64,000 nucleotides of DNA from an uncultured Gemmatimonadales bacterium (GCA_963779755.1 CAVZZO010000003.1:1632001-1696000); one strand, 5' to 3'. Positions 39,001 through 51,000 are shown, counted from the stretch's first letter. Made by a program: the numbers.

Positions 39001-42000
39001 CGGCTTCGAGAGCAACGACCTGGGCCTGACCCAGACCACCGGCCGCCGCGGGATTTCCACCGACCTGCATTACTACCAGCCCCGCCCGGGCCTCTTCCGC
39101 AACTGGACCGTCGGAGTGCTGAGCGGGAACGACTGGAACTACGACGGCAATCACACTACCAGCTACCTGGGCAATATTATCGAGCTGCGGCTGCGGAACT
39201 TCTGGTCCTACCACAGCCAGCTCTTCTATGACTTCAGCGCCTACGACGACCAGCTCACCCGGGGGGGCCCCCTTGCCCGGCTGCCCCAGCGGGGAAACTG
39301 GGACATGTTCCTTGAGTCCGACGATCGCGGGGTGCTGTCGCTGCAGCTGGAAGGGCACTTCAACTGGAACACCGCCGGCGGGTACGCCACCAGGTATGGT
39401 GCCGGGGTGGTCTTTCAGCCCGGCCCCAATCTCCAGGTGAGCCTGGAGCCCAGCTATTCGCGCTACCACAACCTGAGCCAGTATGTCACCACGGTGGACG
39501 ACCCCACCGCCACCGCGACCTTCGGCCGGCGCACCGTCTTCGCCACGGTGGAGCAGCGCGAGGTGGCGCTGACCACGCGACTCAACTGGACTTTCAGTCC
39601 CATGCTCAGCCTGCAGCTCTACCTCCAGCCCTTCGTTTCCACCGGCGCCTACCACGACTACAAGGAATTCCGCGCGCCCGGCACCTTCAATTTCGACAGC
39701 TACGGCCGCAACCGTGGGACCATCGCTCAGGACCCCGCCACCGGCGATTTCACCGTCGACCCCGACGGCGCCGGCCCGGCGCCGGCCTTCGGCTTCCCGG
39801 CGCAGGACTTCAACTTCCGTTCGCTGCGGGCCAATCTGGTCATGCGCTGGGAATACCGCCCGGGCTCGACCCTGTTCCTGGTCTGGCAGCACTCCCGTGC
39901 CGGGGCGGCCGGACGCGGCGACTTCTCCTTCAGACGCGACTTCAACGCGATCTTCGATTATCCGGGGACCAACGTCGTGGCGGTCAAGATGACGTGGTGG
40001 CTGGGGGTATGACAAACCGTAAGGCGTAAGGAGTGAGAGTCAGTATCCCTCGCCCCTTACGCCTCACCCCTCACGCCTCACGCCTCACGCCTCACGCCTC
40101 ACACTTCAACAAACGTCGCCGAGAAGTGCCGCAGCGTCGGCGGGTTGTTGGTCATCCGCAGGCCACGCAGCGTTTCCCGGCACTGATACAACTCCCCCAT
40201 TGCCTCCACCACATAGTCAATGTGGCTCTGGGTGTAAACCCGCCGGGGGATGGCGAGCCGCACCAGTTCCAATGCCGGAGCCGTCTCGCCGCCACCGAAC
40301 ATGACGCTCCCGATCTCCACGGCGCGGATGCCGGCCTGCCGGTACAGCCCGCATACCAGCGCCTGGCCCGGGAACTCGGCCGGCGGGATCCGGGGACACA
40401 GCCCGCCCGCATCCACATAGACGGCATGGCCGCCCGGCGGCTCGATGATGGGATAGCCGATCTCCCGCAGGCGCTCGCCCAGGTATTCCACCGAGCGCAG
40501 GCGGTAGGCGAGATAATCCTCGTGGACCACTTCTTCGAAGCCCTGAGCCATGGCCTCCAGGTCGCGGCCCGCCAGCCCGCCGTAGGTAACGAATCCCTCG
40601 GTCAGGATCAGCAGCGAGCCGGCGCGCTGCGCCAGCTCCGGATCGCGCAGCAGCAGCACGCCGCCGATGTTCACCAGGCCGTCCTTCTTGGCGCTGATGG
40701 TGGCGCCGTCGGCCAGATCGAACATCTCGCGGACGATCGCCCGTACCGGGCGGTCCGACTGCCCCGGCTCGCGCAGCTTGATGAAATAGGCGTTCTCGGC
40801 GAACCGGCAGGCATCGAGAAAGAGCGGGATGCCGTACCGGTCGCACAGGGCCCGGACCGCCCGGAGATTCTCCAGGCTCACCGGCTGTCCCCCGCCCGAG
40901 TTGTTGGTCACCGTGACCATGCAGAGCGGAATCCGCTCCGCCCCCACCTCGTCGATCAGCGCCTGCAGCCGCGCCACATCCATGTTGCCCTTGAAGGGAT
41001 GGCGGCTGGAGGGCTGCCGGCCCTCGGCGATGACCAGATCCACCGCCCGCGCGCCGGAATGCTCCACGTTGGCGCGGGTGGTATCGAAGTGATTGTTGTT
41101 GGGCACGACCTTGCCCGGGCCGCCCATCAGCTCGAACAGAATCCGCTCGCTGGCGCGGCCCTGGTGCGTGGGAAGCGCGTGCGGAAATCCGGTCAGCTCC
41201 GCCAGCTTGGCCTCGAACCGGTAGAAGCTCTCGGCCCCGGCGTACGACTCGTCGCCCTGCATGATGCCGGCCCACTGGAGGCTGCTCATGGCCCCGGTAC
41301 CGCTGTCGGTGAGCAGGTCGATGAGCACGTCGCGCGCGCGGATGTTGAACACATTGAACCGGGCGCGCCGCAGGATCTCCTCCCGTTCCTCCCGGGTGGT
41401 GAGCCGCAGCGGCTCCACCACCTTGATGCGAAACGGCTCGATGATGGTCCGCATGGAGGCTTAGCCCAGCAGGGCGCCGACCTGCCTCAGGCCGGTCTCG
41501 CCCAGGAGGGTACGCGCCAGGGGGAAGAGCACCTGATCTTCCCGCTCGATGTGGGCCCGGAGGAGACCGACCAGCGCATGGGCCGGCGGCCCCACCCCGG
41601 CCGCCGGCTCCGGGGACTCGAGCGCGTCCGCCAGCTGCTGCTCCAGCTCGCGCAGCTCGGCATGTTCCTCGACGAAGACGCCCGTGGGAGCCTCCTCGCC
41701 CAGCAGGCGGAAGAGCGCCCGCTCCTCGTTCTCGTTGTGCTGCCGGACGGCACTGGAGATGAACCGGTGCGCTTCGCGGATCCGGACCAGATTCAGGGTG
41801 AGGCTCTCGCCCCGCTCCACCTCCACGACGGCGGACTCCAGCTCGTCCAGCACGCGCAGCGCGTGCCGGTGCTCCTCTTCAAAACGGGTGATGGGATCGT
41901 CCATGGTCCTGTCCTTCACGGCGTCGCGACCCAGCGGATTCCCTCGCCTCGCCGCAGGCGGTCGAATCCCTGGTTGATCTCCGCCAGCGGGACGGTCCCG

Positions 42001-48000: not shown

Positions 48001-51000
48001 CCAGCGCCGATACGGTGCGGACGAACTCGGGGATCATGGTCTCGTATTCCGGCGGCAGATGCTCGCCCACGTCGGCGCCCGCCGAGAAGTGCCGGCCTTC
48101 TGCGGTCAACAGAATGACCCGCAGGTCCGCGGTCGCGACCAGCCGGTCCACCGCCTTCTGCAGCGCGACCAGCGTGTTGCGCGTCAGGATGTTGAGCGGA
48201 GGGGTGGCGAGAATGATCCGGCCGATGCCGTTGGCCGCCCGTACATGAATACCGCCGTTCATCAGGCCACCTCCCCCAGAAGCTGGCCGCCATCCACCGG
48301 GATCACGGCGCCGGTGATGAATCCGCCGCCCTCCCCGCAGAGGAAACGCGTCACCCGGCCGATGTCCTCCGGCCGGCCCATCCGGCCCAGCGGAGTGCGG
48401 GCCACGGCGCGCTGCCGCAGATCCTCCGGCATCGCCCGGGTCATGTCGGTATCGATGAAGCCGGGAGCGATGACGTTGACCGTGACGCCGTCGCGCGCAA
48501 GCTCCAGCGCCAGCGATCGGGCCAGCCCGATCAGCCCGGCCTTGGAGGCGGCATAGTTGGTCTGGCCCAGCCGTCCGCGGATCCCGTTGATGGACCCGAG
48601 CAGCACCACCCGCCCCATGGGTGAGCGGCGCAGAAGCGGCAAGGCCGCCCGGACGGCGAGAAAGGCGCCGGTCAGGTTGACGTCGAGCACCGCGCGCCAG
48701 TCGGCCTCTTCCATCTTCCAGCTCACCCGGTCGCGGGTAATCCCGGCAGCGCAGACCAGCCAGTCGAGTGCCTGCCGTTCCTCCTCCACCCGCCCCACGG
48801 CGCGGCGGAGGTCGTCCAGGCTGGTGACATCCCCCTCGAGCGTGAGCGAGGCGGGCGAGGCGGCGGGAAATGCCCGGTCCACCGCGGCCACCCAGGCATC
48901 CTCCGCCAGGGCCTCCGCGATGGCGTGGCCGATGCCGCGCCCCGCGCCGGTTACGAGAGCGGTGCGCCGCATGCGCCGCAATACCGGTGCTGAGCCGGGA
49001 GGTTGCCGGCCCCGCAGGCGCCGCAGACCCCGAGCGGCGGCCCCCACTCGGTCTCCGAGCTCAGGCCCTCCGCGGCCCGCTGCCGCAGCAGGTCGTAACG
49101 GGGCGGCCGCTTTTCCACGAACGCCCGCATCCCTTCCACCGGCTCCCAGGAGGCGTAGTGCAGGGCCAGCCAGTCCTGCGCATGCCGCACGGTGGAGTGC
49201 CACGCCAGATCCTTCCAGAAATTCACCTGCTGCTTGGTGTACCGGGTGCACTCCGGGAAGGAGGCGAGCAGCCGGGCGGCGAGATCCTCCACGAAGGCAT
49301 CGAGCTTCGACAGATCGAGCGCGTAGCCGTCCTCGCCCTTCTGGGCCTTGCGGATCTGGCCGGCATCGGCGCCCTCGACCCACTCGCCGTTGTGCCGCAC
49401 CGAGGGCACCACCCAGTTCACCAGGCCCCAGTCCAGTGCCTGTCGCGCGGTGACGGGCTCGTTGAGCATCAGGATCTGGCGGGCCCGCTTGTCGCCCGCC
49501 ACGATCGGCAGCCACTGGGTCGACCCGCCGCAGGCGACCGAGCCCACATGGGTGCCCACCTGCTTGATGATCGCGTGCTCCGCCATCACCGTCAGGTCGC
49601 AGGCCAGCTGGCTCTCGTTGCCGCCGCCCACGGCCATGCCGTTGAGCCGGGCCACCACCGGCTTGCCGGTGTTGAGAATGCTCTCGATATAGGCGCGGAA
49701 CAGCGCCATGTATTTCCAGTAGTCGCGCGGAACGGCCACGTACTCCGCGGCGTACTCCTTCACGTCGCCGCCGGTACAGAAGGCCCGGTCACCGGCTCCG
49801 GTGAGCACGATGACCCCCACGGCGTCGTCGAAGCTGGCGTCGCGGAACGCGGCCGCCAGCTCTTCCAGCGCGCGGGTGGAGTAGGCGTTGTAATTCTGGG
49901 GCCGGTTGATGGTGATCCGCGCCACGCCGCCGGCCTTGGCGTAGAGCACCTCTTCGAAGCCAAAGGTGTCGGCGCCGCGGGGCGCGAAATGCCGGGTCAT
50001 GACGGGGGCGTGCATGTCAGTCCTCCCACCAGGTGGTCGGCGAAGACGGTGCCGAGCTCGGCCCCCTGGATGGTGCCTGCGGGTTGATACCAGCGGGCGA
50101 TCCAGTTGATGGCGCCCAGGATCACGAAGACGGCCACTTTGGGGTCCACGGCGCGAAACTCCCCCGCGCGGACGCCCCCGGCAATGATGGCCCGGAGACC
50201 GCGCTCGTAGCGGTCCCGGGCGGCGATGACCTGCCGCTGCCGCGCCTCGCCCAGCGCGGTGACCTCAAAGGCCAGGGGCGACCCCTCCAGCGTTTCGGTC
50301 ATCACCCGGACGTGCTCGCGGATGACGTGCCGCAGGCGGCCCGTGCCGGTCCGGTGCGCCCGCCGGGCCTCCCGCAGATGCCCGCTCACCTGGGCCAGCG
50401 AAACGCGGTGGCACTCGAAGAGGATCGCTTCCTTGTCGGGGAAGTAGTGGTAAAGCGCCTGCTTGCGCACACCGAGGTAGCGGGCGATGTCCTCCAGCGT
50501 GGTGGCGTGATAGCCCTTATCGCGGAAAGCTGTCAGCGCGGCACGCAGGATCTCCGCCCGGCGGCGTTGCCGCTTGCGGAGCACGTGAGGAGAGGAGCCA
50601 CTGGCCGATACGCGCCGGGCCATGACGGGCCTATTCCGGAAGAAAGAAGTCGGGTTTTACCACCCATTAGAATTCTTACCCACGGTTAAAAATTGGCAAG
50701 CCGGAGATTCTCCCACAGAGAAGACGGCAGGACGGCAGGACGGCAAGACGGCAAGACGGCAAGACGGCAGGACGGCAAGACGGCGGCACTCGCCGTCCTG
50801 CCGTCCTCACCGTGACTGTCGTCACTTCACCGATTTGTCCGCTGGGCCACTTTGTTGAGTCTTCGGCCTCCGCCGGGCTCCGGCGGGATTCCGGCCGGCC
50901 CACACCGCCCGGGCGATGCAGCTCGACGGGGCGGCCCAGAAGCAGAGGGACAACACCGGGAGGGACAGGTATGAAATGGAAGGCGCTACCGCTCGCCGCC

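What a model noticed while it worked through the whole genome (the two positions that open the first line are those of the whole stretch)
41461..50623. Mbd-type class I benzoyl-CoA reductase cassette (anaerobic ring reduction) in Gemmatimonadales
g03578-81 encode a four-subunit ATP-dependent aryl-CoA reductase of the 3-methylbenzoyl-CoA (Mbd) subclass, with dienoyl-CoA hydratase, ring hydrolase, two dehydrogenases, a TetR regulator and a conserved unnamed 85-residue protein, but no aryl-CoA ligase. About an eighth of Gemmatimonadales carry it, shared with soil Acidobacteriota and Chloroflexota.
Evidence so far: Subunits match MbdO and MbdN at E 1.6e-155 and 1.2e-156 vs BzdO/N 3.5e-29 and 6.2e-27. 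Gene pairs near in 171-186 of 1362 order genomes. In 34 long loci: 85-aa gene 32, hydratase 27, hydrolase 25, ADH 25, SDR 19, acyl-CoA-ligase-like 4. hcrABC lies at C1:384285-388238.
(Added by a program. Inside this text positions count along the whole contig: contig position 1,632,001 is position 1 of the stretch shown here. "Call 12" and the like, gene names such as g00115 and contig names such as C1 are that model's own, and its searches are not shown. The text may have been shortened before it was handed on; [...] marks where a part breaks off. The agent that wrote the report below was given it as the finding of a first reader that could run no searches.)

Follow-up and report, generated by a model that had tools for sequence, protein, structure and literature searches.

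The report
Anaerobic aromatic ring-reduction operon variant
This is a real operon for breaking benzene-type rings without oxygen, built on a known ATP-driven enzyme type, but it carries an unusual ring-opening enzyme and a small unnamed two-cysteine protein that is tied to the reductase and sometimes fused to an iron-binding protein.

Summary
Confirmed. An intact minus-strand operon encodes a class I (ATP-dependent) aryl-CoA reductase. All four subunits best match the solved MBR enzyme MbdNOQP, with cluster ligands kept. It also encodes Dch-, Oah-, Had- and SDR-like enzymes, a TetR, an 85-aa CxxC protein, a hemerythrin and, 6 bp further, a tryptophanase. The MBR type occurs in 61 of 401 sampled order genomes. 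The claim of rarity is weaker than scored: benzoyl-CoA reductase genes in Gemmatimonadota are in print (PMC10581226), and this scan has reported the operon at least eight times on other DNA. Added here: (1) the ring hydrolase and dehydrogenase form a divergent set (hydrolase with C-terminal Cys4 tail; 39 of 60 genomes); (2) several predicted pocket positions differ from solved MbdO, so 3-methylbenzoyl-CoA specificity is not shown; (3) the 85-aa family occurs only with this reductase (55 of 61 versus 0 of 340), has no fold match and is repeatedly fused to hemerythrin; (4) the host respires nitrate/N2O and also has Hcr-like and BoxB-like genes. The activating ligase is unassigned in this genome; 22 of 40 relatives have one elsewhere, mostly in an anthranilate cluster. 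Verdict: variant of a known system.

The parts
49997..50623 (-). TetR repressor, 208 aa (TetR_C_24 type; not an MbdR orthologue)
   Evidence: Pfam; best solved relative 3vpr E 2.8e-28, MbdR 4uds only E 1.4e-7
50672..50699 (-). Promoter-like site with a weak copy (50675-50690, 8 of 12) of the palindrome TTGAAC-N4-GTTCAA that is conserved upstream of the TetR gene in relatives
   Evidence: 25 of 34 upstream regions reach 10 of 12 or better (2 of 1020 shuffles), but the window's own score is at chance level
48951..50015 (-). Divergent Oah-like ring hydrolase, 354 aa, with a C-terminal CxxC...CxxC tail ('type A')
   Evidence: best model TIGR03200, 209 bits vs cut-off 464; 35% identical to a canonical Oah; separate branch, Cys tail in 26 of 28 type A rows shown and 0 of 27 type B
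48262..48972 (-). Short-chain dehydrogenase, 236 aa (BzdZ/MbdZ-like role inferred)
   Evidence: overlaps the hydrolase gene by 22 bp
47498..48262 (-). Dch-like dienoyl-CoA hydratase, 254 aa
   Evidence: best model TIGR03189, 199 bits vs cut-off 292
46317..47501 (-). MbdN-like reductase subunit, 394 aa; Cys91, Cys117, Cys344 kept, the three extra double-cubane cysteines of BzdN absent
   Evidence: ligand numbering from PMC11971306
45003..46304 (-). MbdO-like catalytic subunit, 433 aa; Cys92, Cys125, Cys370, Glu63, Tyr94 kept
44169..44987 (-). MbdQ-like ATPase (alpha) subunit, 272 aa
43366..44172 (-). MbdP-like ATPase (delta) subunit, 268 aa
43108..43365 (-). 85-aa unnamed protein with invariant GW..R, CxxC (Cys61, Cys64) and YTR; candidate accessory of the reductase
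42936..43107 (.). Spacer holding a ~110-nt genome-wide repeat (REP-like); not part of the system
   Evidence: 13 places at 90% identity or more among 29 matches in this genome; fold z -1.4; no Rfam match
41916..42935 (-). Divergent Had-like Zn-dehydrogenase, 339 aa
   Evidence: best model TIGR03201, 238 bits vs cut-off 339
41461..41904 (-). Hemerythrin/HHE di-iron protein, 147 aa (H, HxxxE, H, HxxxE)
   Evidence: Pfam PF01814; weak RIC/YtfE-family match; sequence
40099..41454 (-). Tryptophanase, 451 aa, 6 bp after the hemerythrin gene; probably co-transcribed
   Evidence: NF009709 over cut-off; carries FDTT and RHF as in solved tryptophanases rather than FTTT and RFF of tyrosine phenol-lyase

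Best explanation
The operon encodes the upper anaerobic benzoyl-CoA pathway of a facultative, nitrate/N2O-respiring bacterium. MbdQP hydrolyses ATP to push single electrons from reduced ferredoxin through MbdN to the water-bound [4Fe-4S] cluster of MbdO, which reduces an aryl-CoA to the 1,5-dienoyl-CoA (shown: subunits and ligands; inferred from the solved relatives: chemistry). The hydratase, Zn-dehydrogenase and hydrolase then add water, oxidise and open the ring to a 3-hydroxypimeloyl-type CoA ester, and the SDR starts beta-oxidation towards glutaryl-CoA (inferred; each is the best family match but below cut-off). The most likely main substrate is benzoyl-CoA arriving through the Hcr-like enzyme from 4-hydroxybenzoyl-CoA (about 55% within this reading); with oxygen the same pool would go to the BoxB-like cluster. 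Electrons probably come from the genome's single 7Fe-type ferredoxin, reduced by two KorAB pairs, a pyruvate:ferredoxin oxidoreductase and Rnf (inferred). The TetR represses the operon until an aryl-CoA binds (inferred). The 85-aa CxxC protein is a dedicated accessory; I put metal/Fe-S cluster delivery or repair together with the hemerythrin first (about 40%), an electron carrier replacing the missing operon ferredoxin second (about 20%). The acid-activating step is unassigned in this genome; candidates are a FadD-type ligase (C3:1039926) and an ADP-forming ligase (C1:1661326).
For: Four subunits best match MbdN, O, Q, P; catalytic Cys, Glu and Tyr invariant in 96 of 96 homologues. Ring-pathway genes travel with it; an Oah-like match in 57 of 60 carriers and 0 of 19 non-carriers. 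HcrA-like gene in 40 of 40 carriers, 19 of 20 genomes with the other reductase type and 10 of 20 non-carriers, 9 of which have BoxB-like instead. Host has Sec-type NosZ over cut-off, NapA-like, NirK-like, KorAB x2, PFOR with Rnf, FdxA, ETF next to an acyl-CoA dehydrogenase, BoxB-like cluster. 85-aa gene in 55 of 61 carriers and 0 of 340 others, directly after mbdP; 5 of 6 longer homologues are hemerythrin fusions, 4 of 4 fusion loci follow mbdP; hemerythrin in 26 of 95 cassette loci vs 0 of 14 control loci, and the only such gene in this genome is the operon's.
Against: No subunit or downstream enzyme passes an NCBIfam equivalog cut-off (no MBR model exists among those hit). No benzoate-CoA ligase, class III CoA-transferase, IorAB, PadB-like or Abm genes found in this 97%-complete genome, so the entry route is missing. 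Hcr-like subunits are below cut-off in all 80 genomes and here. Kin are not independent, so the co-occurrence counts overstate. The hemerythrin profile was built from genes of these same loci, which favours the contrast. The 85-aa gene is missing in 3 long loci and 6 of 61 genomes, so it is not essential everywhere. The window's own operator copy is at chance level.
Confidence: 0.8

Rival explanations
1. Same chemistry, but specialised for a substituted aryl-CoA, most plausibly tryptophan-derived 2-aminobenzoyl-CoA (or a 3-hydroxy/3-methyl analogue); the divergent hydrolase and dehydrogenase handle the substituted ring.
For: Type A hydrolase and dehydrogenase never mix with the canonical pair (21 A+A, 24 B+B, 0 mixed loci). 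Tryptophanase lies beside the cassette here, in 5 of 80 loci and in 4 of 40 carriers, upstream or downstream. The ligase of relatives sits beside an AbmA-type monooxygenase/reductase in 12 of 13 loci, with TDO and a kynureninase-like gene in 7. Four loci carry a BZD-type reductase in tandem with the MBR type, which suggests different substrates. Anaerobic indole breakdown runs through anthranilate (PMC6221969, passages).
Against: This genome lacks the Abm cluster, a hydantoinase-type enzyme and the ligase, and has the aerobic 3-hydroxyanthranilate route. Tryptophanase homologues are in 65 of 80 genomes, carriers or not. The same pocket signature is found with canonical Oah/Had, and type A hydrolase also accompanies Thauera-type reductases.
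Confidence: 0.3
2. In this genome the operon is intact but marginal: without an entry ligase it only salvages small aryl-CoA amounts or serves as an electron sink, not growth on aromatics.
For: Only four AMP-binding proteins, none of the benzoate-CoA ligase family; 18 of 40 same-family carriers show none over cut-off; no aromatic-acid transporter genes in the cassette.
Against: All genes are intact and highly conserved (70-85% identity across phyla); Hcr-like and BoxB-like systems are kept as well; a FadD-type and an ADP-forming ligase are available; the assembly is 97% complete in 4 contigs, so a gene may be missing.
Confidence: 0.12
3. A Rhodopseudomonas-style route (BadK/BadH/BadI) to pimeloyl-CoA, with the SDR as BadH and the hydrolase as BadI.
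For: An SDR is present and the hydrolase has a second-best match to BadI (167 bits).
Against: Oah scores higher (209), the protein aligns over 319 residues with a canonical Oah, the hydratase best matches Dch and a Had-like Zn enzyme is present; the SDR is absent or truncated in several type A cassettes.
Confidence: 0.06
4. The four genes are a 2-hydroxyacyl-CoA dehydratase with its activator, not a ring reductase.
For: Same Pfam families (PF06050, PF01869).
Against: HadB/HadC match at E 2e-31 and 2e-35 against 1e-155 for MbdO/N; two different ATPase subunits; ring-pathway neighbours; one starred branch apart from BcrB, BzdO and HadB-like rows.
Confidence: 0.02

Closest known systems
MBR-type class I benzoyl-CoA reductase MbdONQP (PDB 9g87, 9gai, 9gal, 9gba); mbd cluster of Azoarcus (Aromatoleum) sp. 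CIB (PMC4424350)
   Same: All four subunits are best matches; two short ATPase subunits; three-cysteine clusters in N and O; Dch/Had/Oah/SDR partners; a TetR-family regulator.
   Different: Residues 45/47/124/128/307 read M/S/A/Y/W here and A/N/Y/F/D in solved MbdO; TetR is not MbdR-like and the MbdR operator ATAC-N10-GTAT is in 0 of 34 upstream regions; no ligase, ABC transporter or ferredoxin gene in the cassette; an 85-aa CxxC gene and a hemerythrin are added. Whether the proteobacterial mbd clusters hold the 85-aa gene or a type A hydrolase could not be tested.
BCR-type (Thauera) BcrCBAD
   Same: Same family and chemistry; about 35% identity; found over the curated cut-offs in other genomes of the same order.
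   Different: Window subunits score 271 and 207 against cut-offs 421 and 487; BcrA is long (423 aa) whereas MbdQ is 272 aa; no 85-aa gene in 20 such genomes.
BZD-type BzdNOPQ (PDB 8s02; PMC11971306)
   Same: Gene order N-O-activator-activator-small gene; catalytic Cys, Glu, Tyr positions.
   Different: 24-27% identity; no double-cubane ligands, no His131; the small gene after the activators is a ferredoxin in bzd loci but the CxxC protein here.
RIC/YtfE iron-sulfur repair proteins and COG3945 hemerythrins of betaproteobacterial benzoate clusters (PMC6449761)
   Same: HHE di-iron motif; placed in aromatic-degradation clusters; fusion of a small Cys-bearing domain to a hemerythrin (RIC architecture recalled).
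   Different: Far below RIC cut-offs; the 85-aa domain matches no Pfam, NCBIfam or solved fold.

Membership tests
MBR-type class I benzoyl-CoA reductase | Four subunits closest to MbdN, MbdO, MbdP, MbdQ | tested here: met
MBR-type class I benzoyl-CoA reductase | Cluster cysteines and active-site Glu/Tyr of the catalytic dimer; cysteines of the ATPase pair | tested here: met
MBR-type class I benzoyl-CoA reductase | ATP-dependent reduction of (methyl)benzoyl-CoA to dienoyl-CoA by a stable tetramer | not testable with these tools
   needs the purified enzyme
3-methylbenzoyl-CoA (mbd) pathway | Substrate pocket as in solved MbdO | tested here: inconclusive
   five positions near the BzdO pocket differ by sequence alignment; no structure of the window protein was modelled
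3-methylbenzoyl-CoA (mbd) pathway | MbdR regulator and ATAC-N10-GTAT operator | tested here: not met
3-methylbenzoyl-CoA (mbd) pathway | Linked CoA ligase and ABC transporter (mbdA, mbdB1-5) | tested here: not met
BCR-type (Thauera) reductase | TIGR02259-02263 cut-offs | tested here: not met
BZD-type reductase | TIGR03190-03192 cut-offs; six double-cubane cysteines | tested here: not met
Canonical Oah / Had / Dch equivalogs | TIGR03200, TIGR03201, TIGR03189 cut-offs | tested here: not met
   best models but 209/464, 238/339, 199/292 bits; type B relatives pass Oah and Had
2-hydroxyacyl-CoA dehydratase (HAD) | Closest to HadBC with a single homodimeric activator | tested here: not met
RIC/YtfE Fe-S repair system (85-aa protein + hemerythrin) | RIC family score; iron donation to damaged clusters | tested here: inconclusive
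   motif fits, scores 20-34 bits vs cut-offs above 200; activity not testable
Ferredoxin (85-aa protein) | Ferredoxin motif or fold | tested here: inconclusive
   only two conserved cysteines; no Pfam match; fold searches gave no clear match

The most novel reading that the evidence does not exclude
The 85-aa CxxC protein is an unrecognised, dedicated fifth component of most environmental MBR-type reductases: with a partner or fused di-iron hemerythrin it rebuilds or shields the oxygen-labile Fe-S clusters (or hands over electrons in place of a ferredoxin), and with a new Cys4-tailed hydrolase subfamily it lets mostly aerobic soil Gemmatimonadota, Acidobacteriota and Chloroflexota switch between Box-type and ATP-driven ring breakdown of aryl-CoAs derived from aromatic amino acids.
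Probability: 0.3. Interest if true: 0.7.

Novelty: new variant of a known kind. Interest (0 to 1): 0.45.

Why it matters
If right, abundant soil and sediment lineages usually treated as aerobic heterotrophs contribute to oxygen-free turnover of aromatic carbon, coupled in this host to nitrate and N2O reduction. Standard family models miss the whole module (no subunit or ring enzyme passes its cut-off), so surveys undercount it. The accessory protein and the divergent hydrolase are small, testable targets, and an accessory that stabilises class I reductases would be useful to groups developing enzymatic Birch reduction.

Tried and rejected
Fold of the 85-aa protein: AlphaFold model pLDDT 79.6 (beta-alpha-beta, alpha-beta); Foldseek gave no match at E<=0.001 and the wide search none at Z>=5, best 4.5; a profile hit to an EF-hand dynein protein (E 2e-4) is taken as chance; two Atlas searches gave only unnamed clusters or nothing. 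No RNA holder was listed for the operon. The spacer 42936-43107 was tested as a structured RNA and rejected: it is a genome-wide repeat. Entry routes looked for in this genome and not found with the queries used: benzoate-CoA ligase family, class III and Gct-type CoA transferases, IorAB, PadB-like molybdoenzyme, Abm cluster, hydantoinase-type enzyme; the single UbiD is the menaquinone decarboxylase and the single aromatic lyase is histidine ammonia-lyase. Tyrosine phenol-lyase reading of the neighbour gene rejected on two signature positions. A plasmid search found no MBR-type gene. My interim idea that all three class I types occur in the order was narrowed: BZD type passed the cut-off in 9 of 301 class genomes, all outside the order. 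The MBR paper (PMC6028946) is not held and was not read; only its reference line was seen. One query (hemerythrin) was in the wrong frame and its results were not used.

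
Full report
Observation. The stretch 41461-50623 holds eleven open genes on the minus strand in the order TetR, Oah-like, SDR, Dch-like, N, O, Q, P, 85-aa gene, Had-like, hemerythrin, with a tryptophanase 6 bp further on; most overlap or lie within 15 bp of each other, and GC3 is 0.83-0.92. The only long spacer (172 bp) holds a genome-wide repeat. The hcr-like trio is where it was said to be; Hcr models score best but below cut-off, and HcrB keeps a four-cysteine insertion.

Enzyme type. PMC11971306 (parts 1-4 of 8 read: abstract, introduction, results, discussion) names three class I types, BCR, MBR and BZD, and gives the BzdO/BzdN ligands. The window's O subunit keeps Cys92, Cys125, Cys370, Glu63 and Tyr94 (96 of 96 homologues at >=55% identity); the N subunit keeps three of the six BzdN cysteines, as solved MbdN does. 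No subunit passes a BCR or BZD cut-off. In a quick tree of 100 rows the MBR-like O proteins form one starred branch apart from BcrB, BzdO and a HadB-like row (outgroup branches are very long and the set is biased to the window's nearest relatives, so I draw no conclusion on donors). The label '3-methyl' is not shown: M45, S47, A124, Y128 are invariant and W307 is in 88 of 96 homologues, whereas solved MbdO has A, N, Y, F and D there (read from the alignment); their place near the pocket rests on sequence alignment only. The TetR is closest to 3vpr (E 2.8e-28) and far from MbdR (E 1.4e-7); relatives share a different palindrome, TTGAAC-N4-GTTCAA (25 of 34 regions at 10 of 12 or better, 2 of 1020 shuffles; consensus taken from the same regions), the window's own copy scores only 8 of 12, and the MbdR operator (PMC4424350, passages) is in 0 of 34.

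Distribution. 81 of 401 sampled order genomes match MbdO; 61 (with this genome) at >=62% identity and 20 at about 35%, with no genome in both sets. By family the MBR type is in 40 of 186, 3 of 187 and 17 of 27. Three of the 20 were opened: they carry Thauera-type bcrCBAD, over cut-off for the subunits scanned; the other 17 are assigned by identity only. BZD type passed in 9 of 301 class genomes, all outside the order, often in tandem with the MBR type (4 of 80 loci).

Two downstream modules. The window's hydrolase and Zn-dehydrogenase belong to a divergent 'type A' pair; other cassettes carry canonical Oah and Had that pass their cut-offs. The pairs do not mix: 21 A+A, 24 B+B, 0 mixed (one duplicate contig is included in the 21). 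Among 60 carrier genomes 39 are type A, 18 type B, 3 neither; 0 of 19 non-carriers match. Type A hydrolases form their own branch and mostly end in a CxxC...CxxC tail that 27 of 27 type B proteins lack.

The 85-aa protein. It has invariant GW..R, CxxC and YTR (57 rows; CxxC...YTR in 150 of 150 top library representatives); 988 clusters at 50% identity match, and the names shown among the 120 best homologues are all 'hypothetical protein'. It is in 55 of 401 genomes, all among the 61 carriers, and in 68 of 80 loci, 9 of the 12 misses being contig ends. It sits after mbdP, where bzd loci have their ferredoxin; no MBR module has its own ferredoxin gene (small ferredoxin-like ORFs in 5 of 95 loci, four of them in bzd modules). 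Five of 6 longer homologues are hemerythrin fusions and one a RidA fusion (only 8000 candidates scored); L038 is another; 4 of 4 fusion loci fetched follow mbdP. Hemerythrin genes lie in 26 of 95 cassette loci (19 of 47 long ones) and 0 of 14 control loci, by a profile built from 8 genes of cassette-type loci; two duplicate loci were dropped before these counts. PMC6449761 (passages) reports HHE proteins in betaproteobacterial benzoate clusters with an unknown, possibly oxygen-scavenging role. Hence my ranking: cluster repair or metal delivery first, electron carrier second. Neither is shown.

Host context. The genome (97% complete, 4 contigs) has NosZ over cut-off, NapA-like and NirK-like proteins, a NiFe hydrogenase, several haem-copper oxidase motifs, two KorAB pairs, PFOR next to Rnf-like genes (Rnf named by recall from sequence), FdxA, an acyl-CoA dehydrogenase next to ETF, and a BoxB-like cluster. 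This fits the facultative lifestyle of class I hosts. In a panel of 40 carriers, 20 non-carriers of the same family and 20 Bcr-type genomes (80 of the 401; picked by me), HcrA-like genes are in 40, 10 and 19, BoxB-like in 22, 10 and 2, benzoate-CoA-ligase-family genes over cut-off in 22, 8 and 1. Nine of the 10 non-carriers with Hcr have BoxB-like, so Hcr nearly always comes with some route that consumes benzoyl-CoA. The 20 non-carriers include G077, which is flagged unpublished; the non-carrier denominators rest on it (no match in 58, 59, 93). Kin are not independent.

Entry of substrate. This is the open point. This genome has four AMP-binding proteins and one ADP-forming ligase, none assignable to aromatic acids. 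In relatives the ligase lies beside an NF006101 monooxygenase/reductase (AbmA by recall) in 12 of 13 loci opened, with TDO and a kynureninase-like gene (name recalled, no model hit) in 7. Tryptophanase neighbours the cassette in 5 of 80 loci and 4 of 40 carriers, but homologues are in 65 of 80 genomes. IorAB goes with type B: 9 of 10 same-family type B genomes, 3 of 39 type A, 0 of 19 non-carriers.

What is known. PMC10581226 states that permafrost and marine-sediment Gemmatimonadota MAGs have benzoyl-CoA degradation genes (passages), and its supplementary table lists 'Benzoyl-CoA reductase subunit BadD' and BoxB in dozens of MAGs (two rows seen, files cut when stored, one PDF not searchable). 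PMC11704145 lists one Gemmatimonadales MAG among aromatic mineralisers (passages and one supplement row). PMC10936416 and its preprint found no bcr in 37 FCB representatives but many in Krumholzibacteriota (passages); 10.1101/2025.11.25.690425 notes pathway genes in most Gemmatimonadota MAGs (passages). PMC10803450, PMC8099898 and PMC7500099 (passages) added nothing on this point. In nine searches I saw no listing that assigns these genes to the MBR type or mentions the small protein or the divergent hydrolase; most subscription papers, the MBR paper (PMC6028946, not held) and any paper on PDB 9g87/9gai were not seen, and bioRxiv supplements are closed, so the claim of absence is limited. The scan's own notes hold the same operon in at least eight other genomes and the tryptophanase link and BoxB cluster in this one.

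Verdict. Real; works like an MBR-type benzoyl-CoA reductase pathway (0.8); member of the MBR subclass by every sequence test, not a member of the mbd pathway as defined by regulator, ligase and transporter. New variant of a known kind; interest 0.45.

Noticed in passing
L089:5516-19999 and L090:1-9074 (G004); also L091-L094 (G041, G160): A second, larger cluster in non-MBR genomes: Thauera-type bcrCBAD, Hcr-like genes, thiolase, type A hydrolase, then a ketopantoate-reductase-like domain fused to a HadB-like subunit, a second HadB-like gene, two activases, an acyl-CoA ligase, Had and a hemerythrin. It could be a full route aryl-pyruvate to aryl-lactate to cinnamoyl-CoA to benzoyl-CoA; untested, and worth its own follow-up.
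   Followed up: partly
L045, L050, L070, L085, L110, L119 downstream of the 85-aa gene: Type B cassettes carry a LeuA/homocitrate-synthase-like gene, a LeuB/homoisocitrate-dehydrogenase-like gene and IorAB. Either a ferredoxin-regenerating mini-cycle or a one-carbon chain extension of phenylpyruvate that would give phenylpropionyl-CoA without a ligase; not resolved.
   Followed up: partly
L015, L020, L063, L064: BZD-type bzdNOPQ with ferredoxin and a BzdV-like flavoprotein directly upstream of the MBR-type genes in one cluster.
   Followed up: partly
G000 C1:2217751-2226820 (L121): Short BoxB-like epoxidase (371 aa, 227 bits vs cut-off 499) with three crotonases, thiolase, aldehyde dehydrogenase and TetR; in 34 of 80 panel genomes.
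   Followed up: partly
window 50713-50814: About nine head-to-tail copies of an 8-bp unit with an inverted arm, upstream of the operon promoter.
   Followed up: no
window 42940-43107; also window 34748-34854, 19433-19466 and 19549-19582: A ~110-nt repeat present at many places in the genome, some in tandem clusters such as C3:1025093-1026108.
   Followed up: partly
G000 C3:981064-983652 (L128): Kynureninase fused to a flavin monooxygenase (862 aa) in an aerobic tryptophan cluster.
   Followed up: no
G000 C1:719548-725515 (L099): NapA-like gene with two small multihaem cytochromes and DsrO/DsrP-like partners instead of the usual napB/napC; several 16- to 23-haem cytochromes elsewhere.
   Followed up: no
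L105:13075-14304, L118:2720-3943: A radical SAM gene of no named family next to type A cassettes in two genomes.
   Followed up: no
L012, L009, L013, L029, L038, L047, L060, L074, L077, L086, L088, L112, L115, L116: A PaaX-like regulator replaces the TetR in 14 cassette loci, 12 of them type A and none type B.
   Followed up: partly
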